DNA of 64,000 bases, taken from NCBI GenBank assembly GCA_965205955.1, contig OZ242192.1, positions 1,477,118 through 1,541,117 on the forward strand, written 5' to 3'. Both the position numbers and the translations under genes were made by a program. Under the pieces are notes generated by a model. The model did not search any database, was not told the origin of the DNA, and saw only the letters and a list, made by a program, of their open reading frames with translations. This DNA is from Gammaproteobacteria bacterium. GTDB lineage: Bacteria; Pseudomonadota; Gammaproteobacteria; Eutrophobiales; Eutrophobiaceae. Of this stretch, positions 40,042 through 53,485 are shown piece by piece (within the stretch, counting starts at the first letter, position 1; each line of letters opens with the position of its first letter).

Positions 40042-40736
40042 ACCGGGAAAAATTGAAAAATATTATCGAGGCGGCACTGATGGTAGCGCATCAGCCACTG
40101 AATTTGCATCGAATACAGGAACTGTTTGAAAATGAGCAGGAAAGGCCGGGGAGTTCCGATATACGCGCTGCGATAGAGCAACTGCAACAGGAATACGACG
40201 GGCGCGGCATTGAATTGAAAGAGATCGCCAGCGGGTTCCGCATCCAGGCAAAGGTCGAATATTGTGGATGGCTTAACAGGCTGTTCGAGGAAAAGTCGCC
40301 GCGCTATTCCAGAGCGCTGATTGAAACGCTCGCGATTATTGTCTATCGCCAACCCATTACGCGCGGTGAGATAGAAAATATACGCGGAGTCGGTGTCAGC
40401 TCCGCCATTATAAAAACACTGCATGAAAGAAAATGGATCAAGGTGGTCGGTCATCGGGATATTCCCGGAAAACCCGAATTACTGGCCACTACCAGGCAAT
40501 TTCTGGATTATTTCAATCTTAAAAAACTGACTGAATTGCCGGTTTTGGCTGAAAGCAAGGATGCCAGCAATATCGATGCAGATCTGTTTGAATATCCTCC
40601 AGAGGAGGCGGCAGATAAAACCGGGCTGCCAAACCCGGAAGAAAATAAAAAAGTTTTAACCAGCGATGATTCCGCCGGAAACGGCGAACCGTTACAGCCC
40701 TCCGCTGAGGTCAAAACTATCCCGTTGGCCAATTAG
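40038..40736 (+). CDS. scpB: Segregation and condensation protein B.
   Basis: MNREKLKNIIEAALMVAHQPL... An ATGA overlap with scpA is present. Confidence 0.8.
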   Translation: MNREKLKNIIEAALMVAHQPLNLHRIQELFENEQERPGSSDIRAAIEQLQQEYDGRGIELKEIASGFRIQAKVEYCGWLNRLFEEKSPRYSRALIETLAIIVYRQPITRGEIENIRGVGVSSAIIKTLHERKWIKVVGHRDIPGKPELLATTRQFLDYFNLKKLTELPVLAESKDASNIDADLFEYPPEEAADKTGLPNPEENKKVLTSDDSAGNGEPLQPSAEVKTIPLAN

Positions 40737-40766
40737 ACTAGCTCTGTTTTTGAGCGTCACGCAATA

Positions 40767-41507
40767 ATGCCCCAAAGAATTCAAAAGCTGCTGGCGCAAA
40801 TGGGCTGTGGTTCCAGACGGGAAATCGAAACATGGATCCGTGCCGGCAGGATCCAGGTCAATGGCCGGCCTGCCAAAATTGGCGAGCGGATCGATGCAGA
40901 TGACCGCATAAGCCTGGATAAAAAGCCGGTTCACCTCAATAACGGCAGCAAGGTAAAAAATCGTATCCTGGCCTATTACAAACCGGGGGGCCTGATATGT
41001 ACCTCCCGTGACCCTGAGGGCCGGGAGACGGTGTTTGAGCATTTGCCCGCCTTGAAAAAACAGCGCTGGATCAGCGTGGGCCGGCTGGATATCAATACCA
41101 GTGGCTTGATGCTGTTTAGCAATAATGGCGATTGGGCGCATTATTTAATGCATCCTTCCAGCAATATTGAGAGAGAATATGCGGTGCGCGTCCTGGGCGA
41201 AGTGGGAGAAAAACACCTGAGCAATCTCCGTGCCGGGATCATGCTGGACGGCAGATTGACGCGCTGTACAGATATTGTAGATTCAGAAGGAAAGGCGGCC
41301 AATCGATGGTTCCATATGACCATAACCGAGGGCCGCAACCGGGAAGTGCGGCGGATGTGGCAGTCGCAGGGCTTCAAAGTAAGCCGGTTGATCCGGGTGC
41401 GCTATGGCAGTTATATCCTGCCCAGAAACAAAAAACCGGGTGATTACTGGGATCTGACGGATAAGGAAATCGATCAATTGACAGCTTTCGTCAAAGCGAG
41501 CGTATAA
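40767..41507 (+). CDS. rluB: 23S rRNA pseudouridine synthase RluB.
   Basis: S4 domain followed by an RsuA-family catalytic domain (RLDINTSGLMLFSNNGDWA). Confidence 0.85.
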   Translation: MPQRIQKLLAQMGCGSRREIETWIRAGRIQVNGRPAKIGERIDADDRISLDKKPVHLNNGSKVKNRILAYYKPGGLICTSRDPEGRETVFEHLPALKKQRWISVGRLDINTSGLMLFSNNGDWAHYLMHPSSNIEREYAVRVLGEVGEKHLSNLRAGIMLDGRLTRCTDIVDSEGKAANRWFHMTITEGRNREVRRMWQSQGFKVSRLIRVRYGSYILPRNKKPGDYWDLTDKEIDQLTAFVKASV

Positions 41508-41508
41508 C

Positions 41509-42174
41509 ATGCCGGAGCTCTCATCGAGAAATTTATTGCTGCTGTACAACCGGCTATACAGCGCCTATGGCCCGCAGCATTGGTGGCCGGCCGAGTCCGG
41601 ATTCGAGGTAATGATCGGATCGATCCTGGTTCAAAACACAGCCTGGAAAAACGTTGAACAGGCGATCCAAAATCTCAAACAAGCTGAATGTCTCTCTGAA
41701 AAAAGGCTGGCCGAATTACCCGATACCGAATTAGCCGAATTGATCCGGCCATCCGGTCACTTCAACATCAAGACAAAACGCCTGAAAAATTTTCTTCACA
41801 CCTACCGACTTATGGGAGGGTTTGAAGGATTGCAATCCTTTGGCACCAATAAATTAAGGCAGATCCTGCTGGATATAAACGGAATTGGGCCGGAAACCGC
41901 CGACGATATACTGCTGTACTCCTTCAACAGGCCAGTATTTGTGATCGATGCCTGTACCCGCAGATTATTCAGCCGCCTCGATTTAATTGCCGGAGACGAA
42001 CCGTATGAGACATTGCGGGCATCGGTGGAGCAGGCATTGGGGGCGGACACAGAGGTATATAATGAATACCATGCCCTGGTAGTCAGACATGCCAAGGAAA
42101 AATGCGCACTCGGAGCGGATTGCCAGCATTGCCGCATTGAAATGCCGCTGATTGAACTACGGCAAACGGGCTGA
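41509..42174 (+). CDS. Endonuclease III-related HhH-GPD base-excision repair protein.
   Basis: HhH-GPD fold motifs are present (...LDINGIGPETADDILLYSF..VFVIDACTRR...). Confidence 0.7.
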   Translation: MPELSSRNLLLLYNRLYSAYGPQHWWPAESGFEVMIGSILVQNTAWKNVEQAIQNLKQAECLSEKRLAELPDTELAELIRPSGHFNIKTKRLKNFLHTYRLMGGFEGLQSFGTNKLRQILLDINGIGPETADDILLYSFNRPVFVIDACTRRLFSRLDLIAGDEPYETLRASVEQALGADTEVYNEYHALVVRHAKEKCALGADCQHCRIEMPLIELRQTG

Positions 42175-42286
42175 TCGAGCGAGCATATTCATGCAGGGTT
42201 ACAGGTTAATTTTACTGTATTGACTTGATTTCAAGTCTGTTATCCTTAGCCTATACAAGACTTTTTATAGAGCAGGTTCCGATTAG

Positions 42287-43051
42287 ATGTCCCCACGACA
42301 AGCACTGGTAGCCGCAAACTGGAAGATGCATGGCTCACTGGAAACCATACGGCCATTGGTAAATGGCATTGTTCGAGGTTGGAACGATGCGACAAAGGCG
42401 CAAGTCGTCCTCTGTCCGCCATTTCCCTATTTGCAGGAGGTATCGGACTGCCTGACCGGTAGCAGTATATCTCTGGGGGCACAGGATATATCGGCGCATA
42501 GTGAAGGAGCTTATACCGGCGATGTGGCCGGCTCGATGCTCCGGGACTATCGATGTGAAATGGTCATAGTCGGGCATTCGGAACGGAGAAGAGATAACGC
42601 CGATACCGATGAGCGTGTTGCGCAAAAATTCGCCTCGGCGGTTACATCGGCATTGACGCCGGTACTGTGCGTCGGTGAATCCCTGGAGGAAAGGCAGGCA
42701 GGCGATACCGAGCAGGTGATTGCCCGCCAACTCGATGCGGTCTTGAATGCAAACCGGATCAACGCCTTCGAAAATGCCGTGATCGCCTATGAACCCGTGT
42801 GGGCCATAGGCACAGGCGCCACGGCAGCGCCCGAGCAGGCGCAGGAAGCGCATGCCTTCATTCGCTTATGCCTGGCAAGGCACGATAATACTATTGCAAA
42901 TAAAATCCGCATTCTTTATGGTGGTAGTGTAAAGGCGGACAACGCTGCGGAATTATTTAAAATGGCGGATATAGACGGTGGTTTGATTGGCGGCGCATCA
43001 TTGCTGATCGATGACTTCCTGAGCATCTGTCATTCAATACAGGGCAAATAA
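42287..43051 (+). CDS. tpiA: Triosephosphate isomerase.
   Basis: ...ALVAANWKMHGS...VIVGHSERR...AYEPVWAIGTG... Confidence 0.9.
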   Translation: MSPRQALVAANWKMHGSLETIRPLVNGIVRGWNDATKAQVVLCPPFPYLQEVSDCLTGSSISLGAQDISAHSEGAYTGDVAGSMLRDYRCEMVIVGHSERRRDNADTDERVAQKFASAVTSALTPVLCVGESLEERQAGDTEQVIARQLDAVLNANRINAFENAVIAYEPVWAIGTGATAAPEQAQEAHAFIRLCLARHDNTIANKIRILYGGSVKADNAAELFKMADIDGGLIGGASLLIDDFLSICHSIQGK

Positions 43052-43079
43052 AATAGACACATTTCAGACAGTATTATTT

Positions 43080-43478
43080 TTGATACAGGTGGTGGTTGCC
43101 ATTCTCTTGGTTGGATTTATCCTGATTCAGCATGGCAAAGGCGCGGATGCCGGCGCTGCATTCGGCAGCGGCGCCTCCTCCACCATGTTTGGCAGCAGGG
43201 GCTCCAGTAAGTTTCTGGTTAAATTTACCACTTTTCTGGTAGTTATATTTTTGGGCAATAGTCTTTTTTTGGCATATCTGGCCGCGCAAAACGTGCGCCA
43301 GCCACCACCGAGCGTGATGGATCAGACGCTTGTTCCGGTGGAAGAAACGATGACAGTGATCAATGAAACAGACAGCCAGGAGGAAACAGACAGCCAGGAT
43401 GAAACAGACAGCCAGGAGGACGAGGCTGTTTCGGATATTGATGCTGTTCCCTCTGATCTGCCGACTATTCCCGAATAA
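43080..43478 (+). CDS. secG: Preprotein translocase subunit SecG, with an unusual acidic C-terminal ETDSQ repeat extension.
   Basis: MIQVVVAILLVGFILIQHGKGADAGAAFGSGASSTMFGS... followed by a second transmembrane segment, then ETDSQEETDSQDETDSQEDEA. Confidence 0.85.
   Translation: MIQVVVAILLVGFILIQHGKGADAGAAFGSGASSTMFGSRGSSKFLVKFTTFLVVIFLGNSLFLAYLAAQNVRQPPPSVMDQTLVPVEETMTVINETDSQEETDSQDETDSQEDEAVSDIDAVPSDLPTIPE
43365..43418 (+). repeat. Three tandem copies of an 18-nt unit, gaaacagacagccagga(g/t), encoding ETDSQE/D.
   Basis: Read directly from the sequence: 43365-43382, 43383-43400 and 43401-43418. Confidence 0.85.
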
Positions 43479-43490
43479 ACTGATTGTAAT

Positions 43491-43575
43491 GCCGATGTGG
43501 TGGAATTGGTAGACACGCTATCTTGAGGGGGTAGTGCCTTTTGGCGTGCCGGTTCGACTCCGGCCATCGGCACCA
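43491..43575 (+). tRNA. tRNA-Leu (anticodon GAG), 85 nt with CCA.
   Basis: GCCGATGTGGTGGAATTGGTAGACACGCTATCTTGAGGGGGTAGTGCC...GGTTCGACTCCGGCCATCGGCACCA. The anticodon loop is TTGAGGG, with a long variable arm. Confidence 0.9.
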
Positions 43576-43659
43576 TTGTATTTTTTATGCGGCGACATGC
43601 GGCAGGGAATTTAGGGTATAACTACACCCGATAACAATTATTTTTGATAAACCAAATCA

Positions 43660-46407
43660 ATGCCCCTCAGCTGGAATGAAATCCGCGATCGTGCGTTGGC
43701 GTTTTCCAATGATTGGAGCGGGGAGTCTTCCGAACGCGCCGAAGCGCAGACTTTCTGGAACGCCTTTTTTAACCTCTTCGGCGTCTCCCGCCGCCGGATC
43801 GCCTCCTTTGAAAAGCGCGTCAAGGAAGTTGACGGCAAGGGCGGCTACATCGATTTGCTGTGGAAAGGCGTGCTGTTGATCGAGCACAAGTCACGCGGTG
43901 AAAATCTCGACCGCGCTTACCAGCAGGCGCTGGATTATTTCCCCGGATTGGAAGACCGCGACCTGCCGCGTTTTGTGCTGGTGTCCGATTTCGCCCGTTT
44001 TCGGCTATACGACCTGGACGAAGGCGAGCAGCACGAGTTTGCCGTGCAAGACCTGCACAAGCACGTCAACCGTTTTGCCTTCATCGCCGGTTATCAAACC
44101 CACAAAATAAAAGAGCAGGACCCGGTCAACATCAAAGCCGCCGAGTTGATGGGCAAACTGCACGATCGGCTACGGGCAGTCGGCTACACCGGCCACGATC
44201 TGGAGGTGTATCTGGTGCGTCTGTTGTTTTGCATGTTTGCCGAAGACACCGGAATTTTTGAGCGGCAGCAGTTTCAGGAGTACATTGAAATCCGCACCGC
44301 GCAGGACGGCACCGACCTCGGGGCGCAACTCGATACCTTGTTTTATGTATTGAACGCACCGGAACCCAACCGCCTCGACAACCGCGACGAACAACTCAAC
44401 GGATTCCCGTTTGTCAACGGCAAACTGTTCGAGGAGCGCCTGCGCCCAGCGGCATTTGACTGCGCCATGCGCGAATCGCTGCTGCATTGCTGCTCGCTCG
44501 ACTGGAGCCGTATCTCCCCGGCGATTTTCGGCTCGCTGTTTCAGTCCATCATGGACAAAGACGCACGGCGCAACCTCGGCGCGCACTACACCTCGGAGGA
44601 GAACATCCTCAAACTCATCAATCCGCTTTTCATGGACGACCTGCGGGCCGAGTTTAAAAAAGTCAAAAACAACAAAAACAGGCTGTTCGAGTTCCACAAA
44701 AAACTCCGCACCCTGACGTTCCTTGACCCCGCCTGCGGCTGCGGCAATTTCCTCGTCATCGCCTACCGTGAATTGCGCCTGCTGGAGCTGGAAATTCTGC
44801 GCGCGACGTACCGGCAGGGCAGGCAGATGTTACAAATCCAAACCATGATCCAACTAGACGTGGACCAGTTCTACGGCATAGAAATCGAAGAGTTCCCGGC
44901 GCAAATCGCACAGGTGGCAATGTGGCTGGTTGACCATCAGATGAACACGCGGGTGTCGCAGGAGTTCGGTATGTACTTTGCGCGCATTCCGCTGACATCG
45001 AGCGCGAATATCGTTCACGGCAATGCCTTGCAGATGGACTGGCGGGATTTGGTTGTGCCGGAGCGGTTGAATTACATTATGGGGAATCCGCCGTTTATTG
45101 GTAAAAACTTTCAGAACAGCGAACAAAAGCAGGACATGAAGCGCATTTATGGGGAATCCAGATACAGCGCGGGATTGGATTATGTGACCGCCTGGTATAA
45201 ACAGGCTTTGCGCTATATGAAAGACAACGATGAGATTACATGCGCGTTTGTTTCCACCAACTCTATCACGCAAGGCGAGCAGGTCTATATGTTTTGGCCG
45301 GCTTTGCTGGGAGACGGCATCCAGATTCATTTTGCGCACCGGACTTTTCAATGGGCGAATGAAGCCAGAGGCAAGGCCGCCGTGCATTGCGTGATCATCG
45401 GCTTTGGCTTGAAACCGGCGAAGAAAAAGCGATTGTTTGAATACGAGGATATTCAAAGCAAGCCGCATGAAATTCGCGCCAACAATATCAACCCGTATCT
45501 TGTGGATGCTGGCAATATCGTCATTCCTGCGGCGACCAGCGCTTTGTGTGATTGCCCGAAAATGATCAACGGAAACAAGCCGACTGACGGCGGGAATCTG
45601 TTGCTGAATGAAAAGGAAAAGAATGAGTTATTAGCATTGCAACCCGAAGCAGCCGAATGGGTTAAGCCGTATTCAATGGGCAACGAGTTTATTAACGGCA
45701 TTCCCCGTTTTTGTTTGTGGTTGAAACATTGTCCCCCGGAAAAATTACGCAAGATGCCGCATGTCATAAAGCGCATAGAAGCGGTAAAAGAGATGCGCAG
45801 TAAAAGCGCGGATAAGAACACGCGGAAATTTGCCGAAAAGCCGACGGTTTTTATGGCTGATAGACAATCTGAAAGTGCGTATCTGGCGATTCCCAGGATA
45901 TCCTCTGAAAGAAGAATTTATATTCCGATAGGCTTTTTGCAACCCGACCATATTGCAGGCGAAACATTGCACACGGTGCCGAATGCAACTCTCTATCATT
46001 TTGGCGTGGTCACATCGCTTATGCACATGGCATGGATGCGGGTCGTGGGCGGCAGGCTCAAGAGCGACTATCGTTATCTAGCGAACATCGTCTACAACAA
46101 CTACCCTTGGCCTAAAACCCCAACCGAAAAACAAACCGCCGACATCGAAACCAAAGCCCAGGCAGTCCTTGACGCCCGTGCGCAATTCCCCGACTCCACC
46201 CTCGCCGATCTCTACGACCCGTTGACCATGCCGCCGCCGCTCCTCAAAGCCCATCAGGCATTGGACAAAGCGGTAGATCGCACTTACCGCAAAACCCCGT
46301 TCAACAACGAAGCCGAGCGGGTTGCCTTCCTGTTCGATCTCTACCAACAATACACCGCCCCGCTCCTGCCGAAGAAAAAAACACAGCGGCGGAAGAGGGC
46401 GATCTAA
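43660..46407 (+). CDS. MmeI-family Type IIL restriction-modification enzyme, with fused PD-(D/E)xK endonuclease, helical, gamma-class N6-adenine methyltransferase and target-recognition domains.
   Basis: At 915 aa it matches the family size. The N-terminus reads MPLSWNEIRDRALAFSNDW...AEAQTFWNAFFNLFGV...IDLLWKGVLLIEHKSRG (D...E.K nuclease core). Motif I is LDPACGCGNFLV and motif IV YIMGNPPFIGKN. Confidence 0.8.
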   Translation: MPLSWNEIRDRALAFSNDWSGESSERAEAQTFWNAFFNLFGVSRRRIASFEKRVKEVDGKGGYIDLLWKGVLLIEHKSRGENLDRAYQQALDYFPGLEDRDLPRFVLVSDFARFRLYDLDEGEQHEFAVQDLHKHVNRFAFIAGYQTHKIKEQDPVNIKAAELMGKLHDRLRAVGYTGHDLEVYLVRLLFCMFAEDTGIFERQQFQEYIEIRTAQDGTDLGAQLDTLFYVLNAPEPNRLDNRDEQLNGFPFVNGKLFEERLRPAAFDCAMRESLLHCCSLDWSRISPAIFGSLFQSIMDKDARRNLGAHYTSEENILKLINPLFMDDLRAEFKKVKNNKNRLFEFHKKLRTLTFLDPACGCGNFLVIAYRELRLLELEILRATYRQGRQMLQIQTMIQLDVDQFYGIEIEEFPAQIAQVAMWLVDHQMNTRVSQEFGMYFARIPLTSSANIVHGNALQMDWRDLVVPERLNYIMGNPPFIGKNFQNSEQKQDMKRIYGESRYSAGLDYVTAWYKQALRYMKDNDEITCAFVSTNSITQGEQVYMFWPALLGDGIQIHFAHRTFQWANEARGKAAVHCVIIGFGLKPAKKKRLFEYEDIQSKPHEIRANNINPYLVDAGNIVIPAATSALCDCPKMINGNKPTDGGNLLLNEKEKNELLALQPEAAEWVKPYSMGNEFINGIPRFCLWLKHCPPEKLRKMPHVIKRIEAVKEMRSKSADKNTRKFAEKPTVFMADRQSESAYLAIPRISSERRIYIPIGFLQPDHIAGETLHTVPNATLYHFGVVTSLMHMAWMRVVGGRLKSDYRYLANIVYNNYPWPKTPTEKQTADIETKAQAVLDARAQFPDSTLADLYDPLTMPPPLLKAHQALDKAVDRTYRKTPFNNEAERVAFLFDLYQQYTAPLLPKKKTQRRKRAI

Positions 46408-46755
46408 AGAATTGCGCTAAAATGGCTATTCTTTCAATGCCCCATCTTACTGCACATCGGCTGTATATTATAAGTACTACGATAAACCTGTTATAACTGG
46501 GATATCTATATTGTCACCAAGCATGCCAATGTGTCAGTGATATTTAATCTTTGAATAGACAATTTCTACTTTCCAGTTATTGCGGACAAGTTGTCGATAA
46601 ATATAATTCTTTCCTGCTGCCAAATCTTCAGTGGAAACTCATGGGCCGCTAGTAATCTTGCTATCTGCTTTATCAAGGTGATTTCCTGCTTAGTGTAACT
46701 CTAGGAATCTAATATTAGTTTTAGGAGTTTGAAATAGAGTTTTCAGGGTATTTTT

Positions 46756-47532
46756 TTAATCCTTATGTTTATCATTATTTTTCGATTGACGTTTGATTTT
46801 ATTGAGATCGACCAGCTCATTTCTTATTTGGTTAATTTTTATTTTATGAGGCTCATGTTTGGAGAGACAGCATTTTTTATATTTTTTACCACTTCCGCAT
46901 AAGCATAGATCATTCCTTCCGGTTTTGCCGGTTTTGCTTATTATTTCCGATTTGCAAAATTCAAGTCTCTTCTCACGATCTTCTATCTCCTCTTCAAGAG
47001 CTTCTTTTGTGGAATGTGGAGATTCTCCACATGGTGGAATTTTTCTATATTTGTAATAGTAAGACTGCCACACAAAGTATGGATAAACATCATGATGAAT
47101 GAAATCACTCAGTGAAGCTCTGGTAGATAAGCTTTTTGTCGATATGATGTTTAGGCAGCATCTGTGATCTTGAGGGAATAAATGCAAGTCAATAACTTTT
47201 TTTGTTAACTTATTTGCTAGACTCTCAATCTTCTCTCCAACTTCGTATACTTTAGGATATCTATTTTTTTGATTTAGGTCAATTTCAATTAGGTATTCGC
47301 CTGTTATACATCCATTTTGGTCATCTCTACATTGCTCTATCTCCCAATAGGTAAAATTATGCATTTTTCTCTGCTTGTAGCAACAAGCAGGAATATCCAA
47401 TATGCCGCGTATTTTGTTATCTTCTGAGCAATAGTAGAGACGAGGAAACCATTTTTTTACTTTTTCAAATTCTACCTGTGAATGTTTAATCAATTGCGAA
47501 TGGTTTTTTTGCATGCGTTGTGGGAATAACAA
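46756..47532 (-). CDS. SEC-C-motif (CxC..GSGxKYKxCC) metal-binding protein of unknown function, last gene of the AT-rich CBASS-like operon.
   Basis: The C-terminus reads ...DLCLCGSGKKYKKCCL. The N-terminal ~200 aa are Cys-rich with no domain I recognise. The gene is ~30% GC. Its 5' end overlaps the 3' end of the upstream SMODS gene by 29-47 nt, depending on which Met is used. Confidence 0.6.
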   Translation of the reverse strand: MLFPQRMQKNHSQLIKHSQVEFEKVKKWFPRLYYCSEDNKIRGILDIPACCYKQRKMHNFTYWEIEQCRDDQNGCITGEYLIEIDLNQKNRYPKVYEVGEKIESLANKLTKKVIDLHLFPQDHRCCLNIISTKSLSTRASLSDFIHHDVYPYFVWQSYYYKYRKIPPCGESPHSTKEALEEEIEDREKRLEFCKSEIISKTGKTGRNDLCLCGSGKKYKKCCLSKHEPHKIKINQIRNELVDLNKIKRQSKNNDKHKD

Positions 47533-48478
47533 CAGCTGGAGCTACGCCAATACTACTGGAGGTATTTGACGATTTTTTTGTCAATTTCCCAAAATCATCA
47601 CCAAACAATTTACGCCACTTCTTGATACTTTCATCGTGGTCTTTCTCCTCAAAAGCCTCATCAATTCTTTTATTATATATACTGAACTTGTCTCTAAAGT
47701 TATCATATTTTTTCTGATTCCAGTGTCTATTGAAATCTTCTTCAGACATGACAGGGTTTTCAATGATTGGCATGGTTATATGCATTTGGAGAAAGTCATT
47801 CAATCTATTAGAAAGAGTCTTTAATGTTGTTGGTACATCTGAAAAGTCTCTAGAGTTTCCATCTCCATCTTTGACTTCATTCCCCAACAAGGTTGTCAGT
47901 AATATAGATTTTACTGAGAAATTGTCCTTATGATCGCGCAAGAACTTCAGTAGCCTAGTTGTCTTTCTGAAATTGTTGTTTCTTACAATCTGATTTTTGT
48001 TTATCAGCCAGGTCTTATATCCATCACCGTCAGTCTTTTCATATTTTTCTTCTGTTCTGTTGCATATGTAGTTTGTTCCGTTGTGCTCTACACAAGGAAC
48101 TATGTCCAAATCAAAATCACCAGCGTAATCGATAGTTACACACCGTGTGCCTATTTCAATTTTGTCTTTGTAGTTGTCATTGTTCTTGAACACATCATAG
48201 ACTGTCTTCACATAGTCCGTTTCGAATTTGTTCGGATCAAAATTATTATCTCGAATCAAGGTTAATATATCTGCATCAAATTGATCGTTAGCTTGTACTG
48301 GCTTGATTATGGTCTTGTGGGCATATGATCCCTGCTCGCTGTATTTTCTATAGTTTGCAAGCTTTTCTTTGAGAATATCTGTGATGGTTTTTACACGTTT
48401 CTTTAGTGCTTCCAATCTCGTTGGATTCAGATTGACATGCTTATTCAGAAAATCGTCAAAATCTAGTAGGTGCTTCAT
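47486..48478 (-). CDS. SMODS-domain cGAS/DncV-like nucleotidyltransferase (CD-NTase), the cyclic-oligonucleotide synthase of a CBASS-like system.
   Basis: GS...h[DE]h[DE]h is matched by EQGSYAHKTIIKPVQANDQFDADILTLI, and the third acidic residue lies in YAGDFDLDIVPCVEH. The protein is 330 aa. A GGAGG ribosome-binding site lies 11 nt after the patatin stop. Confidence 0.7.
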   Translation of the reverse strand: MKHLLDFDDFLNKHVNLNPTRLEALKKRVKTITDILKEKLANYRKYSEQGSYAHKTIIKPVQANDQFDADILTLIRDNNFDPNKFETDYVKTVYDVFKNNDNYKDKIEIGTRCVTIDYAGDFDLDIVPCVEHNGTNYICNRTEEKYEKTDGDGYKTWLINKNQIVRNNNFRKTTRLLKFLRDHKDNFSVKSILLTTLLGNEVKDGDGNSRDFSDVPTTLKTLSNRLNDFLQMHITMPIIENPVMSEEDFNRHWNQKKYDNFRDKFSIYNKRIDEAFEEKDHDESIKKWRKLFGDDFGKLTKKSSNTSSSIGVAPAVVIPTTHAKKPFAID

Positions 48479-48489
48479 TTTTTTTCCTC

Positions 48490-49443
48490 CTATTGCTTCC
48501 GTCCGTTTAGAAAATCTGAAATGCCGGTGTTGTCTTTTGTGAACATTTCTTTAGCTCTCTCCACTAAGATGGGGATGTTTTGATAATTATCAAGTGGATA
48601 TTTATCGATAGGGGGGTTGATCCTGAAAATCCCATCTGGATCAATCAGTTGCAAGACATTTTGAGGAAACTTTGTTTGGCATGACATCATAAAATCGACC
48701 AATTGGGTATGTTTCCACCCCGTCAAAAAACCCCACCCCCATCTTTGAGGCTTTTTGTAATTGTGCTGAGCCTGCCCAGTTCCTAAAGATAAAATTTTGA
48801 TGTTATCTCGTTGTTCTGAGAAATTTCTAATGGCATCAGTATAGCCAACCAAAGAGGGATTATTTGCCCAGATGCCCCCATCACAAATAAGAGTGCCGTT
48901 TATATCTACCGGATCAAAATAAATTGGTGCTGAGCACGAGGCCAAAACTGCTTTGTATAAAGGTACTTCTCTATCACGCACATAATCGCCTTTTCGCTGA
49001 ACCTTTTGATACGATGATTTAAAGACATAGACTTCTCCAAGAGAGACGTTTGTTGCATTCAATATGAGAGGTTTTTCTATTTCTCCTAACTTCCTCTTGC
49101 CTAGTTTTTCCTGAAGAAAGCTTTCCAGAAAGGAGGAATCGTATTTGGAGCTTAAATGAATGCCTGCAAGCTTTTTCTTCCTAAATATTTTTGGGGCATT
49201 TTCGTCGTAATCCTTTACTAGCTGAGTTAAATCATACTTTGTAATGATAGCTGCAGCTATAATACTGCCGGTACTAGTTCCTACGATGAGATCGAAGGTT
49301 TTATATATATCTATATTGAGCTTGGTTTCCATAAGCTCTAGAATCTTTGCAGCGAAGATGCCTCGTACTCCACCACCATCAATGCTCAATACTCGAAATG
49401 GTCTGCTATTCATTAAATTTTCCTCTATTTCTCTGTAAACCAA
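48490..49443 (-). CDS. Patatin-like phospholipase (CapV-like CBASS effector).
   Basis: Oxyanion motif LSIDGGGVRG, nucleophile motif VGTSTGS (GxSxG) and catalytic Asp motif ICDGGIWANNP are present. Confidence 0.85.
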   Translation of the reverse strand: MVYREIEENLMNSRPFRVLSIDGGGVRGIFAAKILELMETKLNIDIYKTFDLIVGTSTGSIIAAAIITKYDLTQLVKDYDENAPKIFRKKKLAGIHLSSKYDSSFLESFLQEKLGKRKLGEIEKPLILNATNVSLGEVYVFKSSYQKVQRKGDYVRDREVPLYKAVLASCSAPIYFDPVDINGTLICDGGIWANNPSLVGYTDAIRNFSEQRDNIKILSLGTGQAQHNYKKPQRWGWGFLTGWKHTQLVDFMMSCQTKFPQNVLQLIDPDGIFRINPPIDKYPLDNYQNIPILVERAKEMFTKDNTGISDFLNGRKQ

Positions 49444-49499
49444 TTCTGCATTAGCACATACTTCATTTGTATGAGCATTATCCCGCCCTTGCTACATTC

Positions 49500-49634
49500 T
49501 TCCGCCATTCCTACCGGAGCAGAAACCCATAGATTGATTGCTGCCAATGAACAGTCCTGTTCCACAGCGGTTTGCAGGGCGAGGTACTGGCGGAGCTGCT
49601 GATGGTCATTGATATCCTCGTAGCCCAGCACCAT
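49500..49634 (-). pseudogene. IS4/IS5-superfamily DDE transposase N-terminal remnant.
   Basis: MVLGYEDINDHQQLRQYLAL...DCSLA resembles the conserved ..LGYEDLNDHD.LR.D.L.. N-terminus of IS4-like transposases and breaks off after ~40 aa. An adjacent out-of-frame Sel1-like fragment is present (MPNKDIKRFQKLLNQAEAGDPEAMFNLATAYINGAG, 49625-49738). Confidence 0.45.
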
Positions 49635-49897
49635 TTATATAGGCGGTAGCAAGATTGAACATTGCTTCTGGATCTCCAGCCTCCGCTTGATTTAGTAATT
49701 TCTGGAATCTTTTAATATCTTTGTTAGGCATTATCTCCGAACCTCGTTATTAAGCAGCGTGAGTTTGCCATCTATGCTATGGCATATAAAAACGGAATTT
49801 CCTTTTTTCTGGCTTATTTAACACTTTAAACCAGGAAATTCCGTAAAATAAACTTATGAATTATCAATGCGCCGCAAAGACAAGAATAATCCACCCG

Positions 49898-50632
49898 CTA
49901 ATACTGATCGATGAAATCCTCCAGCAGGGTTACCACCCGCCCCATACCCTGCTCAAGATTATATTGGATCATCTCCATGGTTACCGGTTGGTCTGATTTA
50001 CCGGCCGCCCGGTTCACGACCAGCGCACAGCAGGCATAGTTGATCGACTGTTCACGGGCAAGGGCGGCTTCCGGCATGCTGGTCATCCCGACAATATCGC
50101 AACCGTCCCGTTCCATTCGGGCGATCTCGGCGGCGGTTTCCAGACGCGGCCCCTGGGTTGTGCCGTATGTGCCTTGTATTGCGGCATCAAGGTTTTCGGC
50201 GGCACTGATGAGCCGCTGTCGTACCGATTCCGAGTAGGGTTGGGTGAAGTCGATATGCGTGACCTGTTTCAGGTTTTCTTCATGGAAGGTTGAGGCGCGA
50301 CCGTGGCTGTAATCTATGAGTTGGTCCGGGATCACGATGCGCTGCGGAGACATGCCGGGAGTGATTCCTCCGACTGTGTTGACTGCGATAATGTCGGTAA
50401 CCTCTATTTGTTTTAAGGCCCAGATGTTTGCCCGGTAATTTATCCTGTGCGGCGGGATGGTGTGGGGATCGCCGTGTCTGGGCAGAAACACGATTTTTTT
50501 CCCGGCGTATTCGGCGATGAGGAGCGCCGAGGATGGTTCGCCCCATGGTGCAGCTATGTTTTTATGTTCTTTTTCCCGTGCGTTGAATCGGTTGGCTATT
50601 CCCGTACCGCCGATGATTGCAAGCCGGGTCAT
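49898..50632 (-). CDS. mtnP: S-methyl-5'-thioadenosine phosphorylase (MTAP/PNP family).
   Basis: MTRLAIIGGTGI...KIVFLPRHG..HTIPPHRINYRANIWALK... Confidence 0.75.
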   Translation of the reverse strand: MTRLAIIGGTGIANRFNAREKEHKNIAAPWGEPSSALLIAEYAGKKIVFLPRHGDPHTIPPHRINYRANIWALKQIEVTDIIAVNTVGGITPGMSPQRIVIPDQLIDYSHGRASTFHEENLKQVTHIDFTQPYSESVRQRLISAAENLDAAIQGTYGTTQGPRLETAAEIARMERDGCDIVGMTSMPEAALAREQSINYACCALVVNRAAGKSDQPVTMEMIQYNLEQGMGRVVTLLEDFIDQY

Positions 50633-51186
50633 GACTCCCTCAGTGCGTAGATGCCGTTACAATTACGATGATATTCATGGTAATCCATGCCGTAGCCGAA
50701 TACATATCGGTCCGGCACGGTCAATTCACAGAAATCGGCTTTTACCCGTTTCTCATTACCGGATAACTCTTTTTCCACCAGCACGGCGGTGTAAGTTTCC
50801 TTTGCCCCGTTCCGTCGGCAATATTCACTGATTTGCGCCAGGGTGGTGCCTTGATCCAGGATGTCATCAATGATCAGCAGAGTCTTTCCCTCCAGCGATT
50901 TTTCCGGCTTTCTCAACCAGTGCAATGTGCCGCCCGCTGTTTTGCCGTGATAGCGGGTCGCATGGATATAGTCGATTTGCAGTGCAAAGGATAATCTGGG
51001 GAGCAGCATTCCGCTTGGAATGATGCCTCCGATCATCACGCACAGAATCAGCGGGTCTTTGCCGGCCAACTGCATGGTTATTTTTTCCGCCATAGTGGTT
51101 ATCGCATCTTCCACCACGCCTGCATCATGGATCAGTTCGGCATTATCGGGTGCAGAGTGTACGCTATTCAATTCTGCCCCTGTCAT
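50629..51186 (-). CDS. hpt: Hypoxanthine-guanine phosphoribosyltransferase.
   Basis: The PRPP-binding motif LLIIDDILDQGTTL is present. The protein is 185 aa. Confidence 0.8.
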   Translation of the reverse strand: MTGAELNSVHSAPDNAELIHDAGVVEDAITTMAEKITMQLAGKDPLILCVMIGGIIPSGMLLPRLSFALQIDYIHATRYHGKTAGGTLHWLRKPEKSLEGKTLLIIDDILDQGTTLAQISEYCRRNGAKETYTAVLVEKELSGNEKRVKADFCELTVPDRYVFGYGMDYHEYHRNCNGIYALRES

Positions 51187-52058
51187 GAGTCATCAGCGTC
51201 CAACTGTTGCTGTCCCACCCAGTTACGTGCGAATTGCCACGCACTCCTGCCGCTGCGCGAGCCGCGCTCCAAAGCCCATTTCAATGCGGCCATGCGCACT
51301 GTTTCATCATATTGCGCCGCTCCGAGTTTGTTTTGCCAGTATTTGACCGTGACAAGATATTGTTCCTGGGTAAAGGGATGAAATGCCAGCCATAGGCCAA
51401 AACGCTCGGATAGAGATATTTTTTCCTCTATTGCCTCACTGAAATGAAGCTCTTCCCCGATATATTTGCTTTGCAGGTTATTGTCCATGTATTCCGGCAT
51501 CAGGTGGCGCCGATTCGACGTGGCATAGAGCAAGATATTTTCAGGTATGCCTTGAATCGAGCCGTCAAGTACCGCTTTCATTTGCTTGTAGCTGGTATCC
51601 ACTGCTTCAAACGACAGGTCGTCACAAAACAGTACAAAATGCGCATCCTGTCCGTCGAGCTGGTCAATGATATCCGGCAAGTCGGTTACATATTGTTTTT
51701 TGACTTCGATTACTTTAAGCCCCTGCGATTGATAATCATTCATAACCGCCTTGATTAACGATGATTTACCCGTCCCCCTTGGCCCCCATAGCAGCACGTT
51801 GTTCGCCGGATACCCGCGTAAAAATTGTCTTGTGTTGCGAATGATCTCCCGTTTTTGATGAGCTATACATTGCAGGTCGCCGAGATTGATGGCAGCAGGG
51901 TGGTTTACCGCCTGGATGTAGCCGCCATGTTGCGATTTTCGCCAGCGATACGCAAAGGCATTGAATTCTGAAGCCGTTTCCGCTTTCTGCGGGAGCAGTC
52001 TGTCGAGATGCTCATTCAAGCGCTCAAGTTGTGTTATTATTTTCTTGTTATCGGACAC
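51183..52058 (-). CDS. DUF815-family AAA+ ATPase.
   Basis: Walker A motif LLWGPRGTGKSS and Walker B motif FVLFCDDLSF are present. The family is a conserved hypothetical. Confidence 0.65.
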   Translation of the reverse strand: MSDNKKIITQLERLNEHLDRLLPQKAETASEFNAFAYRWRKSQHGGYIQAVNHPAAINLGDLQCIAHQKREIIRNTRQFLRGYPANNVLLWGPRGTGKSSLIKAVMNDYQSQGLKVIEVKKQYVTDLPDIIDQLDGQDAHFVLFCDDLSFEAVDTSYKQMKAVLDGSIQGIPENILLYATSNRRHLMPEYMDNNLQSKYIGEELHFSEAIEEKISLSERFGLWLAFHPFTQEQYLVTVKYWQNKLGAAQYDETVRMAALKWALERGSRSGRSAWQFARNWVGQQQLDADDS

Positions 52059-52225
52059 AGATAAGGCCGCCCATGCTGTTAAAGTGATGATTATACTTTA
52101 AATGTATGCAGATATTCCTGATCCGGCTGGAATGTTTTGCGGTAGCCGTCTTATTCTAAGGTAATAGAATGGTATTTTTGCTACTATGCGTCTACAGGGC
52201 TAAACGTCATTGGGAGGAGAGTGTA

Positions 52226-53485
52226 ATGTTTACTAAAGATATGAAGGTTGAAGGTTTCGATGATGAACTTCATCGGGCAATGGATTCGGAGCGAACCAGG
52301 CAGGAGCAGCACATTGAGCTAATCGCTTCGGAAAATATGACGAGTCCCCGCGTTCTGGAATGCCAGGGTTCGGTGTTGACCAATAAATATGCGGAGGGCT
52401 ATCCCGGCAAACGCTATTATGGCGGTTGTGAGTACGTTGATATCGCTGAGCAATTGGCCATTGATCGCGCCAAGGAATTGTTTGGCGCCGATTGGGTGAA
52501 TGTGCAGGCTCATTCCGGCTCGCAGGCAAACGGCGCCGTTTATCTGGCGTTGATTGATCCGGGCGATACGATAATGGGCATGAGTCTGGCGCATGGCGGT
52601 CATCTGACGCACGGCGCATCGGTTAATGTTTCCGGTCGGATCTATAATGCGGTGCAGTACGGGTTGGATCTGGATACCGGAGAAATTGATTACGACCAGG
52701 TCGAACAGCTTGCCCTTGAGCATAAACCAAAATTAATTATGACCGGGTTTTCCGCGTATTCCCGGATTGTGGACTGGCAGCGGTTTCGGGATATTTCCGA
52801 TCAGGTCGGCGCCTTGATGGTTGCGGACATTGCGCATGTTGCCGGTCTGATCGCCGTGGACGAATATCCCAGCCCGGTTCAGATCGCAGACGTTACTACC
52901 ACCACGACTCACAAGACCCTGCGCGGACCGCGTGCGGGGCTGATCATGGGCAAGGCGAATGAGGATATTCAGAAGAAGGTGAACTTTACGGTTTTTCCAT
53001 CTTATCAGGGCGGCCCGTTTATGCATGTTATTGCGGCCAAGGCGGTTGCCTTCAAAGAAGCCATGGAACCTGAATTCAAAACGTATATTCAGCAGGTGAA
53101 GAAGAACGCGAAAGCCATGGCGGAGGCCTTTATCGAACGCGGTTTACGGATAGTTTCCGGCGGCACGGACAACCATTTGTTTCTGGTCGATATGATTGAA
53201 AAAGGTCTGACCGGAAAAGAAGTCGATGCCGCACTGGGGCGCGCCAATATAACCGTCAACAAGAATGCGGTTCCCAATGATCCTCAATCTCCTTTTGTGA
53301 CCAGCGGTATTCGCATCGGTACGCCGGCTGTTACTACCCGGGGCTTTGATGAAAATGATTGCCGGAATGTTGCTGGCTGGATCTGCGATATTATGGATGA
53401 TATAGGCAATGATGCAGTGATTGAGCGCGTCAGGAATGATGTGCTGGCACTGTGTGCAAGCAGGCCTTTATACGATTGGTCCTGA
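52226..53485 (+). CDS. glyA: Serine hydroxymethyltransferase.
   Basis: Start at [15 protein letters not shown] after GGAGG. The PLP-binding region ...[12 protein letters not shown]... is present. Confidence 0.95.

What the first reader, a model, noticed from the sequence alone, without database searches (positions are those of the whole stretch)
43491..49740. About 6-kb defence island inserted 3' of tRNA-Leu(GAG): MmeI-family Type IIL restriction-modification enzyme plus the CBASS-like operon
Immediately after tRNA-Leu comes an intact 915-aa MmeI-family single-polypeptide restriction-modification enzyme. It has an N-terminal PD-(D/E)xK nuclease and a gamma-class N6-adenine methyltransferase (NPPF) with a target-recognition domain, so it needs no separate methyltransferase. 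It is followed by an AT-rich (~30% GC), non-coding-looking spacer (46408-46755) and the three-gene AT-rich operon. The far end is marked by a transposase remnant, after which core genes (mtnP, hpt) resume. This stacks two unrelated defence modules at a tRNA integration hotspot. The MmeI gene has host-like GC (about 55%) whereas the CBASS part is about 30% GC, which suggests two separate acquisition events.
Basis: partly seen in the sequence, partly recalled or inferred. Interest (0 to 1): 0.7.

Follow-up and report, generated by a model that had tools for sequence, protein, structure and literature searches.

The report
Strain-specific CBASS beside resident MmeI enzyme
Two ordinary, intact anti-phage systems sit between tRNA-Leu and mtnP: an MmeI-type restriction-modification gene that every sister strain also carries, with a swapped DNA-recognition domain, and a CBASS operon found only in this strain, which replaced the middle of a neighbouring gene rather than integrating at the tRNA.

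Summary
The sequence features are real. tRNA-Leu(GAG) lies at 43491-43575. An intact 915-aa MmeI-family gene lies at 43660-46407. A minus-strand operon (patatin, CD-NTase, E2) lies at 49443-46756. A transposase scrap follows, then mtnP and hpt. The CBASS GC is 36%, not 30%.

Three sister-strain assemblies are 97-99% identical in the flanks, and all carry MmeI at the same spot next to the tRNA. MmeI is therefore resident in this species. No integrase or tRNA-end repeat is present.

Only the CBASS is strain-specific. Window 46662-49624 (2,963 bp, 37% GC, ending in an IS1380-like fragment) replaces 2,048 bp inside a Sel1-repeat/DUF2971 gene that is intact in one sister strain. Both stumps of that gene remain (46534-46661 and 49625-49731). 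Two other strains carry DUF2513 plus a methyltransferase in this slot.

The MmeI gene is a mosaic. Against the L161/L168 alleles its recognition domain is 74% identical while the rest is 95-100%. Specificity residues predict ..G-R-A-G here and ..G-C-A-C in that allele. Each genome has a second MmeI paralog, and the two loci have exchanged sequence.

The CBASS is an E2-only ("type II short") system with all catalytic motifs intact. Both systems are known kinds, so overall novelty is modest.

The parts
43491..43575 (+). tRNA-Leu(GAG), downstream of tpiA and secG. It is the conserved left neighbour of the locus, not a demonstrated integration site.
   Evidence: ARAGORN; Rfam RF00005 at 50.4 bits. 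The same tRNA sits in the same place in L161, L167 and L168. No repeat of its 3' end occurs in the window.
43602..43659 (+). 58-bp region upstream of MmeI. It is shared with the second MmeI locus of the species and marks the left edge of the duplicated MmeI unit (43602-46401). It presumably holds the promoter.
   Evidence: blastn of window 43602-45199 and 45973-46401 against L169 gives 89.7% and 86.7% identity. Homology to L162 also starts at 43602.
43660..46407 (+). MmeI-family Type IIL/IIG restriction-modification gene, 915 aa. Domains: nuclease, residues 1-173 (D65, E75, K77); methyltransferase, residues 333-594 (motif I at 356-364, NPPF at 476-479); target recognition domain (TRD), residues 617-819; C-terminal domain.
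   Evidence: Five MmeI Pfam domains with E values from 1e-24 to 1e-94. PADLOC REase_MTase_IIG at 1235 bits. 57% identity to MmeI 5HR4 over 911 aligned positions. Motif positions.
45600..46100 (+). Hypervariable part of the MmeI target recognition domain. It carries the specificity residues R746/E768 (position 3), T769/R805 (position 4) and K801/D803 (position 6).
   Evidence: Nucleotide identity to the syntenic alleles of L161/L168 falls from 95-100% to 61-75% here. At protein level the TRD is 74% identical and the other domains 95-100%. The rules come from PMC2731914 and PMC4833311.
46534..46661 (-). 3'-terminal stump (128 bp) of a disrupted Sel1-repeat/DUF2971 gene.
   Evidence: Window 33659-46661 aligns without interruption to L167 1-13003, where an intact 760-aa gene occupies 12876-15158 on the minus strand.
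46662..49624 (-). Strain-specific inserted segment of 2,963 bp at 37% GC: the E2-CBASS operon plus an IS fragment. It replaces 2,048 bp of the Sel1/DUF2971 gene.
   Evidence: Identity drops sharply at 46661|46662 and at 49624|49625 against L167. The segment is absent from L161, L167 and L168 at this locus and from L162 at the second locus. The CD-NTase has one member on one contig in the protein collection, and its next relative is 71% identical.
48490..49443 (-). Patatin-like phospholipase effector (CapV-like). It has G23-G-G-V-R-G, the G55-T-S57-T-G nucleophile motif and D188-G-G. The true start is probably the ATG at 49413.
   Evidence: NCBIfam CBASS_lipase at 220.8 bits against a cut-off of 200. 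PADLOC phospholipase effector at 1e-83. PDB CapV and patatin chains at 1e-23 to 1e-27. Motifs.
47486..48478 (-). CD-NTase (cGAS/DncV-like cyclase), 330 aa. It has G50-S51, D68-x-D70 and D125, and ends ...KKPFA-ID.
   Evidence: Pfam SMODS at 2e-29. PADLOC cyclase at 5e-121. The nearest solved structure is B. cereus CdnD (9sa4) at 5.5e-17, with CdnG only at 2e-6. The catalytic residues are at least 97% conserved in 120 homologs. C-terminal motif.
46756..47514 (-). E2-like (Cap2-short) protein with a C-terminal SEC-C zinc motif, 252 aa from the ATG at 47514. It overlaps the end of the CD-NTase gene by 29 nt. Numbered on the 258-aa ORF that starts at the TTG at 47532, it has invariant H117, C125-C126 and H173, and a CxC...CC motif at 210-222.
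49444..49624 (-). Decayed fragment of an IS1380-family (DDE_Tnp_1_4) transposase gene at the right end of the insert. It begins in mid-gene exactly at the junction.
   Evidence: Pfam PF13701 E=4e-4, profile positions 69-98 of 435. NCBIfam IS1380 E=0.022, which is weak. Junction sequence.
49625..49731 (-). 5'-terminal stump (35 codons, MPNKDIKRFQKLLNQAEAGDPEAMFNLATAYINGA) of the disrupted Sel1/DUF2971 gene.
   Evidence: Window 49625-57318 aligns to L167 15052-22748 at 98.3%. The translation matches the N-terminus of the L167 gene.
49792..49844 (-). Hairpin followed by a T-run downstream of mtnP, a likely mtnP terminator. Its right-hand (+ strand) edge is the breakpoint with the L161/L168 cassette.
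   Evidence: Inverted repeat I7, 17-nt arms, 88% complementary. The breakpoint 49843|49844 is shown.

Best explanation
The interval is a variable defence slot anchored by a resident restriction-modification gene. It is not a tRNA-integrated island.

(1) MmeI. The MmeI-family gene is a fixed, host-adapted single-polypeptide Type IIL enzyme. From family knowledge, it should methylate one strand of a 6-7 bp asymmetric site at the adenine at position 5 and cut unmethylated DNA about 20/18 nt away. Diversity arises by recombination that swaps its target recognition domain. The swaps occur between strains and between the two MmeI paralogs that each genome carries. This changes the sequence recognised. 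This allele is predicted to recognise ..G-(G/R)-A-G. The L161/L168 allele is predicted to recognise ..G-C-A-C. The L162 allele is predicted to recognise ..G-R-A-C.

(2) The slot. The space between the MmeI stop codon and the mtnP terminator holds interchangeable cargo. One strain has an intact Sel1x11-DUF2971 gene. Two strains have DUF2513 plus an N6/N4 methyltransferase.

(3) The CBASS. In this strain a 2,963-bp AT-rich segment replaced 2,048 bp of the Sel1/DUF2971 gene. The segment carries an E2-only CBASS and ends in a truncated IS1380-like transposase. This is a separate and more recent event than the arrival of MmeI. It was probably IS-assisted, followed by deletion.

(4) How the CBASS should work, inferred from the characterised S. 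marcescens E2-CBASS. The E2 cysteine (C125 or C126, assisted by H117) trims the short tail after the conserved ...KP(Y/F)A motif of the CD-NTase and links to it covalently. This would prime or regulate the cyclase. On infection the cyclase makes a cyclic oligonucleotide, which activates the patatin phospholipase, and the cell dies before phage release.

Shown here: gene content, intact motifs, breakpoints, strain distribution and the mosaic structure. Inferred: enzymatic activities, recognition sequence, signal molecule and the way the insert moved.
For: Residency of MmeI:
- L161, L167 and L168 align to window 33655-46397/46661 and 49625/49844-57700 at 97-98.6% identity. Each has tRNA-Leu followed by MmeI.
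- MmeI GC is 53.1% against a window mean of 53.2%.

Insertion of the CBASS into a gene:
- The junctions against L167 are clean, and both gene stumps are retained.
- The intact gene has 11 Sel1 repeats plus DUF2971.
- The CBASS is 36% GC.
- The CD-NTase has no relative above 71% identity apart from the source genome itself.

Alternative cargo: DUF2513 plus N6_N4_Mtase in L161 and L168.

Mosaic MmeI:
- Per-domain identities and 100-bp identity profiles.
- The second paralog lies at a DUF4197...NfeD locus in L169 and L170. L162 is that locus carrying locus-1 TRD, the Sel1 gene and 109 bp of mtnP.

Specificity rules: K806/D808 specifies G, E806/R808 specifies C, R810 specifies a purine, K774 specifies C, and R/K751 with D773 specifies G (PMC2731914, PMC4833311). 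These were applied.

CBASS parts and motifs.

E2-CBASS mechanism: PMC12948482 and bioRxiv 10.1101/2022.05.25.493364.

Architecture: the same three-gene layout with overlapping CD-NTase and E2 genes occurs in the nearest relatives L164 and L165. 23 of 119 homologs are CD-NTase-E2 fusions.
Against: - No strain lacking MmeI at this locus was found, so how and when MmeI arrived next to the tRNA is unknown. A very old tRNA-associated insertion cannot be excluded.
- The transposase match is short and weak (E=4e-4 and E=0.022). No inverted repeats or target duplication were found, so IS involvement is only suggestive.
- Position 3 of the predicted site rests on an R/E pair, whereas the published rule is R/K with D or S. 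Positions 1-2 cannot be predicted.
- The CD-NTase family ends in a conserved Ala-containing motif, not the conserved Gly of the characterised E2-CBASS. It is also closer to a clade-D enzyme than to clade G. Transferring the E2 mechanism to it is therefore an extrapolation.
- L162 is a 1x-coverage contig.
- No expression or activity data exist.
Confidence: 0.8

Rival explanations
1. A single composite genomic island (MmeI plus CBASS) integrated by site-specific recombination into the 3' end of tRNA-Leu. Its integrase and att repeat would have been lost since.
For: MmeI starts 85 bp after the tRNA, and the duplicated MmeI unit starts only 27 bp after it. tRNA genes are common integration sites (general knowledge). 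A transposase scrap lies near the far end.
Against: No repeat of the tRNA 3' end occurs in the window. None of the five gene products scanned in the interval gave a recombinase or integrase hit. MmeI is present with host GC in all three sister strains, while the CBASS is absent from them. The CBASS junctions lie inside a gene 3.1 kb from the tRNA. MmeI relatives in four other contexts have no tRNA nearby.
Confidence: 0.07
2. The CBASS is ancestral at this locus, and the sister strains lost it by replacement with other cargo.
For: Defence slots turn over in both directions (general knowledge). Two different alternative cargos exist.
Against: In the window the CBASS is flanked by the two ends of a gene that is intact and continuous in L167 and L162. 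This gives the direction: the gene came first and was then disrupted. The composition is strongly atypical at 36% against 53%. The cyclase is seen in one genome only.
Confidence: 0.05
3. One or both systems are inactive relics: an orphan methyltransferase-only MmeI, or a CBASS silenced by loss of its promoter.
For: The CBASS sits behind a truncated gene and an IS scrap, so its promoter is undefined. The promoter scan was at chance level. The source annotation calls a shortened 202-aa E2. The CD-NTase tail motif is KKPFA rather than the usual KPYA.
Against: All ORFs are full length compared with homologs. Every catalytic motif checked is intact in all four proteins. The MmeI nuclease triad is conserved in all 40 homologs compared.
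Confidence: 0.1
4. The AT-rich segment is an assembly chimera and not part of this chromosome.
For: It shows an abrupt composition change and is unique to one assembly.
Against: The junctions fall inside a gene, both stumps are kept in the right order and orientation, and 2,048 bp are missing between them. That is a biological replacement pattern. The contig is a 2.57-Mb assembly. Analogous CBASS insertions inside other operons occur in L164 and L165.
Confidence: 0.03

Closest known systems
MmeI (Methylophilus methylotrophus), the prototype of the Type IIL / MmeI family of Type IIG RM enzymes (PDB 5HR4; PMC2731913, PMC2731914, PMC4833311)
   Same: Same five-domain order over the full length at 57% identity. 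The D-x9-E-x-K nuclease triad, SAM motif I and NPPF are all present. No accessory methyltransferase or specificity gene lies nearby. The specificity-determining positions align without gaps.
   Different: The specificity residues differ at five of the six readable base positions: D/M/A, N/K, R/E, T/R and K/D, against A/F/Y, Y/K, E/N, A/R and E/R in MmeI. The site is therefore not TCCRAC. Position 6 is predicted to be G, as in the engineered MmeI(6G) and in natural NmeAIII. Activity was not tested.
E2-CBASS ('type II short' CBASS), characterised in Serratia marcescens (CdnG-E2; PDB 8hsb; PMC12948482; bioRxiv 10.1101/2022.05.25.493364)
   Different: The cyclase is 330 aa and is closest to the clade-D BcCdnD, not to the long clade-G enzymes that make up 74% of E2-CBASS. 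The conserved tail residue is Ala (KPYA; here KKPFA) rather than Gly. The E2 is about 250 aa and has a C-terminal helical extension and a SEC-C zinc motif, neither of which is mentioned for the 18-kDa SmE2. The effector is a patatin lipase.
Vibrio cholerae / E. coli CapV-DncV-Cap2-Cap3 CBASS (type II, PMC10097602)
   Same: The gene order is patatin effector first, then cyclase, then the ubiquitin-like conjugation component. The lipase passes the NCBIfam CBASS_lipase cut-off.
   Different: There is no E1 domain and no Cap3/JAB isopeptidase. The cyclase scores below the cut-off of the NCBIfam cGAS model (79 bits against 150).
Recognition-domain swapping in RM genes (Type I hsdS and Type IIG 'domain movement', for example in Helicobacter pylori, PMC3983042) and defence-gene hotspots between conserved core genes
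   Same: Near-identical strains differ in a block confined to the recognition domain. Paralogous loci exchange sequence. The neighbouring slot holds alternative defence-type cargo.
   Different: Here it is documented for MmeI-family paralogs in an uncultured gammaproteobacterial lineage. In one case (L162) the exchange carried adjacent cargo and a fragment of a core gene (mtnP) from one MmeI locus to the other.

Membership tests
MmeI family (Type IIL / IIG RM) | Single polypeptide with the domain order N-terminal nuclease, helical spacer, gamma-class methyltransferase, TRD, C-terminal domain | tested here: met
   Pfam MmeI_N, MmeI_hel, MmeI_Mtase, MmeI_TRD and MmeI_C all lie far above their cut-offs. 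The alignment to 5HR4 covers query residues 1-912.
MmeI family (Type IIL / IIG RM) | PD-(D/E)xK catalytic triad (MmeI D70, E80, K82) | tested here: met
   D65, E75 and K77 align to the triad. The triad is conserved in all 40 homologs compared.
MmeI family (Type IIL / IIG RM) | N6-adenine methyltransferase motifs I (xxDPACGxGxF) and IV (NPPF/Y) | tested here: met
   DPACGCGNF at 356-364 and NPPF at 476-479.
MmeI family (Type IIL / IIG RM) | No separate methyltransferase or specificity subunit is needed; protection is by single-strand methylation | tested here: inconclusive
   No methyltransferase or hsdS-like ORF lies between 43576 and 49897. The methylation mode itself cannot be tested with these tools.
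MmeI family (Type IIL / IIG RM) | Cleavage about 20/18 nt from an asymmetric 6-7 bp site | not testable with these tools
   This needs enzyme assays or methylome data. Only a partial site prediction was possible (..G-R/G-A-G).
E2-CBASS (type II short CBASS) | CD-NTase with GS...DxD...D active site | tested here: met
   G50-S51, D68, D70 and D125 are at least 97% conserved in 120 homologs. Pfam SMODS at 2e-29 and PADLOC cyclase at 5e-121.
E2-CBASS (type II short CBASS) | Adjacent cyclic-nucleotide-activated effector | tested here: met
   The patatin protein scores 220.8 bits in NCBIfam CBASS_lipase against a cut-off of 200. GGxRG, GxSxG and DGG are all present. Activation by a nucleotide was not tested.
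E2-CBASS (type II short CBASS) | Stand-alone E2-like protein with catalytic Cys and His, and no E1 domain or JAB partner | tested here: met
E2-CBASS (type II short CBASS) | Conserved C-terminal glycine of the cyclase followed by a short cleavable tail | tested here: not met
   This family conserves ...(T)KPYA followed by 1-7 residues. The window has KKPFA-ID. Ala replaces Gly. Ala is tolerated in E1E2 systems (PMC10097602) but has not been shown for E2-only systems.
E2-CBASS (type II short CBASS) | Clade-G cyclase with an extended C-terminal E2-binding motif (typical in 74% of cases, not obligatory) | tested here: not met
   The protein is 330 aa. Its best PDB match is BcCdnD at 5.5e-17. SmCdnG matches only at 2e-6, and only over the N-terminal region.
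tRNA-integrated genomic island | Integrase or recombinase gene at one end | tested here: not met
   Pfam and PADLOC scans of the five gene products in the interval (MmeI, E2, CD-NTase, patatin, transposase scrap) gave no integrase or recombinase hit. The other ORFs of at least 65 aa lie within or overlap these genes and were not scanned. The only mobile-element trace is a 30-residue DDE transposase scrap.
tRNA-integrated genomic island | Direct repeat of the tRNA 3' end at the distal boundary | tested here: not met
   The last 25 nt of the tRNA match only once in 64 kb with up to 3 mismatches. The repeat scan of 43300-50100 found nothing relevant.
tRNA-integrated genomic island | Empty site (tRNA directly followed by the distal core gene) in close relatives | tested here: not met
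   All three sister strains have MmeI after the tRNA. More distant relatives (MtnP at most 64% identical) do not share the tRNA-mtnP neighbourhood at all.

The most novel reading that the evidence does not exclude
The two MmeI paralogs of this species may act as portable homology arms. Recombination between their conserved 5' two-thirds would shuffle recognition domains, and it would also carry whatever defence cargo lies downstream from one chromosomal locus to the other and between strains. L162 fits this: a locus-2 MmeI whose 3' half, the Sel1/DUF2971 gene and 109 bp of mtnP all come from locus 1. On this reading RM genes themselves would be the recombination anchors that build and diversify defence hotspots, with no integrase or tRNA targeting needed. 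A smaller novelty is that this E2-CBASS subfamily may use a mechanistic variant not yet studied. It has a short clade-D-like cyclase, a KPYA tail, an E2 with a SEC-C zinc motif, and frequent cyclase-E2 fusions.
Probability: 0.3. Interest if true: 0.55.

Novelty: new member of a known kind. Interest (0 to 1): 0.32.

Why it matters
The finding gives a clean, base-resolved natural example of how defence repertoires turn over among near-identical strains. A resident RM gene changes its target by swapping its recognition domain. The slot beside it exchanges cargo. A CBASS arrives by gutting a neighbouring gene.

It also corrects the tempting inference that a defence gene next to a tRNA marks a tRNA-integrated island.

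There is practical value too. The alleles described here are natural versions of the engineered MmeI specificity switches, for example K/D against E/R at position 6 between the window allele and P0001. They could provide new Type IIL specificities.

The E2/SEC-C CBASS subfamily with a KPYA-tailed cyclase is an untested variant of the E2-only regulatory mechanism.

None of this overturns current understanding.

Tried and rejected
- **Search for an empty site in species-representative genomes and JGI metagenomes, using MtnP.** The best hits were only 61-64% identical, and none had secG or tRNA-Leu beside mtnP. These collections hold no close relative, so they were uninformative. The useful relatives came instead from the MmeI homolog list and context look-ups.
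- **Exact look-ups of the window's own MmeI, MtnP and CD-NTase.** These returned nothing, although identical proteins (P0242, P0121) are listed on a 2,565,083-bp contig. The source record itself could not be read.
- **tRNA 3'-end repeat search and general repeat search.** Nothing was found. The inverted repeat I2 (46654-46676 and 49634-49656) lies near both junctions. I rejected it as the ends of an element because its right arm lies in the conserved Sel1 stump, outside the insert.
- **Promoter and terminator scan.** Promoter-like sites were at the level expected by chance (14 found, 12.5 expected) and none was informative. Terminator-like sites were somewhat above expectation (11 found, 6.3 expected), but none marked a boundary of the locus.
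- **Rfam scan at a permissive threshold over 43000-50500.** Only the tRNA was found, so the 'spacer' holds no known RNA.
- **phmmer of the E2 protein against PDB sequences.** Only the SEC-C motif matched.
- **The organism could not be named.** MmeI homologs carry names of sponge-associated candidate taxa, but that is only a hint about habitat.

Full report
**1. What is in the sequence**

ARAGORN finds tRNA-Leu(GAG) at 43491-43575, and Rfam agrees. It follows tpiA (42287-43051) and secG (43080-43478).

A 915-aa ORF lies at 43660-46407. It carries all five MmeI Pfam domains and scores 1235 bits against PADLOC's Type IIG model. It aligns end to end with MmeI itself (PDB 5HR4) at 57% identity.

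The following motifs are intact:
- the nuclease triad D65, E75, K77, which aligns to MmeI D70, E80, K82;
- SAM motif I, DPACGCGNF, at residues 356-364;
- NPPF at residues 476-479.

Three ORFs lie on the minus strand.
- **Patatin lipase, 49443-48490.** It passes the NCBIfam CBASS_lipase cut-off. It has GGGVRG, the GTS57TG nucleophile motif and D188GG.
- **CD-NTase, 48478-47486.** Pfam SMODS gives 2e-29 and the PADLOC cyclase model gives 5e-121. G50-S51, D68-x-D70 and D125 are conserved in 120 homologs.
- **E2-like protein with a SEC-C zinc motif, 47532/47514-46756.** PADLOC CBASS E2 models give 9e-21.

ORF 49425-49634 contains a 30-residue match to DDE_Tnp_1_4/IS1380 transposases. The match is weak: E=4e-4 and E=0.022.

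The genes that follow are mtnP, hpt and a DUF815 ATPase. For mtnP the best NCBIfam model is S-methyl-5'-thioinosine phosphorylase.

GC content is 53.2% for the window, 53.1% for MmeI and 36.3% for the CBASS operon, which is the window minimum. The observation therefore stands.

**2. Comparison with relatives**

Searches with MtnP in species-representative genomes and in JGI metagenomes found nothing closer than 61-64% identity. None of those loci had secG or tRNA-Leu next to mtnP.

The MmeI homolog search was more useful. It returned proteins 87-94% identical on long ENA contigs, and context look-ups on these gave sister strains.
- **L161** (ERZ25069323), **L168** (ERZ25069324) and **L167** (ERZ25069316, a 2.63-Mb contig) align to the window on both sides of the locus at 97-98.6% nucleotide identity.
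- All three have tRNA-Leu(GAG) followed by MmeI at the same position.
- None of them has the CBASS.

The window itself comes from a 2,565,083-bp contig. Proteins identical to its MmeI (P0242) and its CD-NTase (P0121) are listed on that contig. That record could not be opened.

**3. Where the CBASS sits**

Against L167 the window is collinear up to 46661 and again from 49625. In L167 those points are 13003 and 15052. Both lie inside an intact 760-aa gene on the minus strand (12876-15158), which encodes 11 Sel1 repeats and a DUF2971 domain.

So window 46662-49624 replaces 2,048 bp of that gene. The inserted segment is 2,963 bp at 37% GC. It carries the E2, CD-NTase and patatin genes plus the transposase scrap.

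Both stumps of the disrupted gene remain:
- 128 bp of its 3' end at 46534-46661;
- 35 codons of its 5' end at 49625-49731, with a translation that matches the L167 N-terminus.

The junctions are abrupt. There is no target duplication, as expected for a replacement. The right edge of the insert begins in mid-codon of the transposase fragment.

L161 and L168 hold different cargo in this slot, DUF2513 plus an N6/N4 DNA methyltransferase. Their breakpoints are at 46397 and 49844. The right-hand breakpoint is the edge of the mtnP terminator hairpin.

The cyclase is seen in one genome only, and its next relative is 71% identical.

The nearest CBASS relatives, L164 and L165, have the same three genes with the same cyclase/E2 overlap. 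They sit inside a Type I RM operon and are 38% GC in a 49-53% GC background. Low GC is therefore a property of this cassette family. The evidence that the insertion is recent comes from the disrupted gene and the strain distribution.

**4. No sign of tRNA-targeted integration**

- The tRNA 3' end is not repeated anywhere in the window.
- The five gene products in the interval gave no integrase or recombinase hit. The other ORFs of at least 65 aa lie within or overlap those genes and were not scanned.
- MmeI relatives in other contexts have no tRNA in the flanks. These contexts are the second locus (L169, L170), downstream of aspS (L163) and downstream of xseA (L171, L172). The nearest CBASS relatives have none either.

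How MmeI first came to lie 27-85 bp from the tRNA remains unknown, because no MmeI-free relative was found.

**5. MmeI is a mosaic with a variable recognition domain**

Against the syntenic L161/L168 alleles, nucleotide identity is 95-100% up to about 45600. It falls to 61-75% across 45600-46100 and recovers to about 90% afterwards. At protein level the recognition domain is 74% identical and the other domains 95-100%.

Each genome carries a second MmeI paralog: P0026 in the source genome, P0241 in L169 and P0010 in L170. It lies between a DUF4197 gene and RloB, AAA_21 and NfeD genes. Homology between the two loci spans exactly 43602-46401, with the recognition domain unalignable.

L162 is the second locus of another strain. 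Its first 2.8 kb match L169 at 97.5%. From about the middle of MmeI onward it carries locus-1 material: the recognition domain (96% identical to the window's), an 868-aa Sel1/DUF2971 gene and 109 bp of mtnP. This shows that the paralogous loci have exchanged sequence. The caveat is that L162 is a 1x-coverage contig.

**6. Predicted specificity**

The prediction uses the published covariation and structural rules for the MmeI family (PMC2731914 and PMC4833311). Residue pairs are given in MmeI numbering.

| Allele | Position 3 (751/773) | Position 4 (774/810) | Position 6 (806/808) | Predicted site |
|---|---|---|---|---|
| Window | R/E, probably G | T/R, a purine | K/D, G | ..G-(G/R)-A-G |
| P0002 (L161) | R/D, G | K/Q, C | E/R, C | ..G-C-A-C |
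| P0001 (L162) | R/E, probably G | T/R, a purine | E/R, C | ..G-(G/R)-A-C |

P0002 also has K at residue 723, which correlates with C at position 1. P0001 differs from the window only at position 6, a natural counterpart of the engineered E806K/R808D switch. Positions 1-2 cannot be read for the window allele. All of these are predictions.

**7. The CBASS type**

The E2-like protein fits its homologs best as 252 aa from the ATG at 47514, since homologs are 240-245 aa. The source annotation's 202-aa call looks too short.

Residues below are numbered on the 258-aa ORF that starts at the TTG at 47532. Invariant residues are H117, C125-C126, H173 and the CxC...CC SEC-C motif.

Structural evidence for an E2 fold:
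- An AlphaFold model built on 29 homologs has pLDDT 84.
- Foldseek ranks UFC1, Atg3 and UEV folds first, but none is significant.

No E1 or JAB domain is present. This makes the operon an E2-only ("type II short") CBASS.

In the characterised system the E2 acts as a cysteine protease. It removes the residue after a conserved C-terminal Gly of the cyclase and then links to the cyclase by thioester and isopeptide bonds, which regulates its activity.

The window's cyclase family differs from that system in three ways:
- It conserves (T)KPYA followed by 1-7 residues; the window has KKPFA-ID.
- It is short, at about 330 aa.
- Its nearest solved relative is the clade-D B. cereus CdnD, not clade G.

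23 of 119 homologs are cyclase-E2 fusions. Such fusions are noted in the literature. The mechanism is inferred by analogy, and the signalling nucleotide is unknown.

**8. Verdict**

The "two acquisitions" idea is also right. The "tRNA-integrated 6-kb island" framing is not supported.

The locus is a resident MmeI gene with a recombining recognition domain. Beside it is a cargo slot, into which a strain-specific CBASS came by replacing the interior of a Sel1/DUF2971 gene, probably with the help of an IS.

Novelty is modest: new members of known kinds and a well-resolved example of defence-locus turnover. The most interesting open possibility is that the paralogous MmeI genes serve as recombination anchors that move recognition domains and neighbouring cargo between loci.

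Noticed in passing
source genome outside the window (protein P0026); L169 8001-10748; L170 7001-9748: Each strain has a second MmeI paralog. It is 75% identical overall to the window's MmeI (N-terminal domain 97%, TRD 43%). It lies between a DUF4197 gene and RloB plus AAA_21 (an OLD/AbiL-like pair) and NfeD. In L170 an NspV-like gene and an N6_Mtase gene lie just upstream, so this looks like a second defence hotspot.
   Followed up: partly
L162 1-9342: A 1x-coverage contig that is locus 2 of another strain. Its MmeI 3' half, an 868-aa Sel1/DUF2971 gene and 109 bp of mtnP derive from locus 1. An Mrr-type Type IV restriction gene follows. This is evidence for ectopic exchange between the two MmeI loci.
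   Followed up: partly
L164 3834-6479; L165 3845-6490: The nearest CBASS relatives (71% identical cyclase) are inserted inside a Type I RM operon, between hsdS and a Bro-N gene plus hsdR. In L164 the hsdM gene is split into three ORFs.
   Followed up: no
homologs of window 47486-48478 (for example P0136, P0143, P0217): 23 of 119 close CD-NTase homologs are 511-560 aa fusions of the cyclase with the E2/SEC-C protein. In unfused operons the two genes overlap by 26-47 nt.
   Followed up: partly
window 43363-43420: Three tandem 18-bp repeats encode ETDSQE(E/D) in the C-terminal tail of SecG. The SecG gene calls differ in length between strains: 130 aa in L161, 132 aa in L167 and the window, 133 aa in L168. 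The alignment to L161 has 6 gap columns in the 43200-43500 block.
   Followed up: no
L167 12876-15158 versus L162 4186-6792: The Sel1/DUF2971 gene varies in copy number of its 108-bp Sel1 repeat (760 aa against 868 aa). It gives a weak hit to the PADLOC candidate family PDC-S31 (E=4e-5). It may itself be a defence or host-interaction gene.
   Followed up: partly
window 29500-31000: A second low-GC patch (36-42% GC). It contains ORF 29807-30616 on the minus strand (269 aa), which has weak similarity to class I SAM methyltransferases such as UbiG and BioC. It may be another acquired segment.
   Followed up: no
window 15-15053: A giant 5,012-aa ORF on the + strand occupies the first 15 kb of the window. 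It was not examined.
   Followed up: no
L171 and L172 (ERZ25069810, one 3.98-Mb contig): An 81%-identical MmeI homolog with the same 7-kb left flank (rpsP, rimM, trmD, rplS, xseA) appears at two positions about 2.1 Mb apart on the same contig. This is either a large duplication or an assembly artefact.
   Followed up: no
It falls just below the cut-off for MTA phosphorylase (TIGR01694, 270.6 against 274.85).
   Followed up: partly
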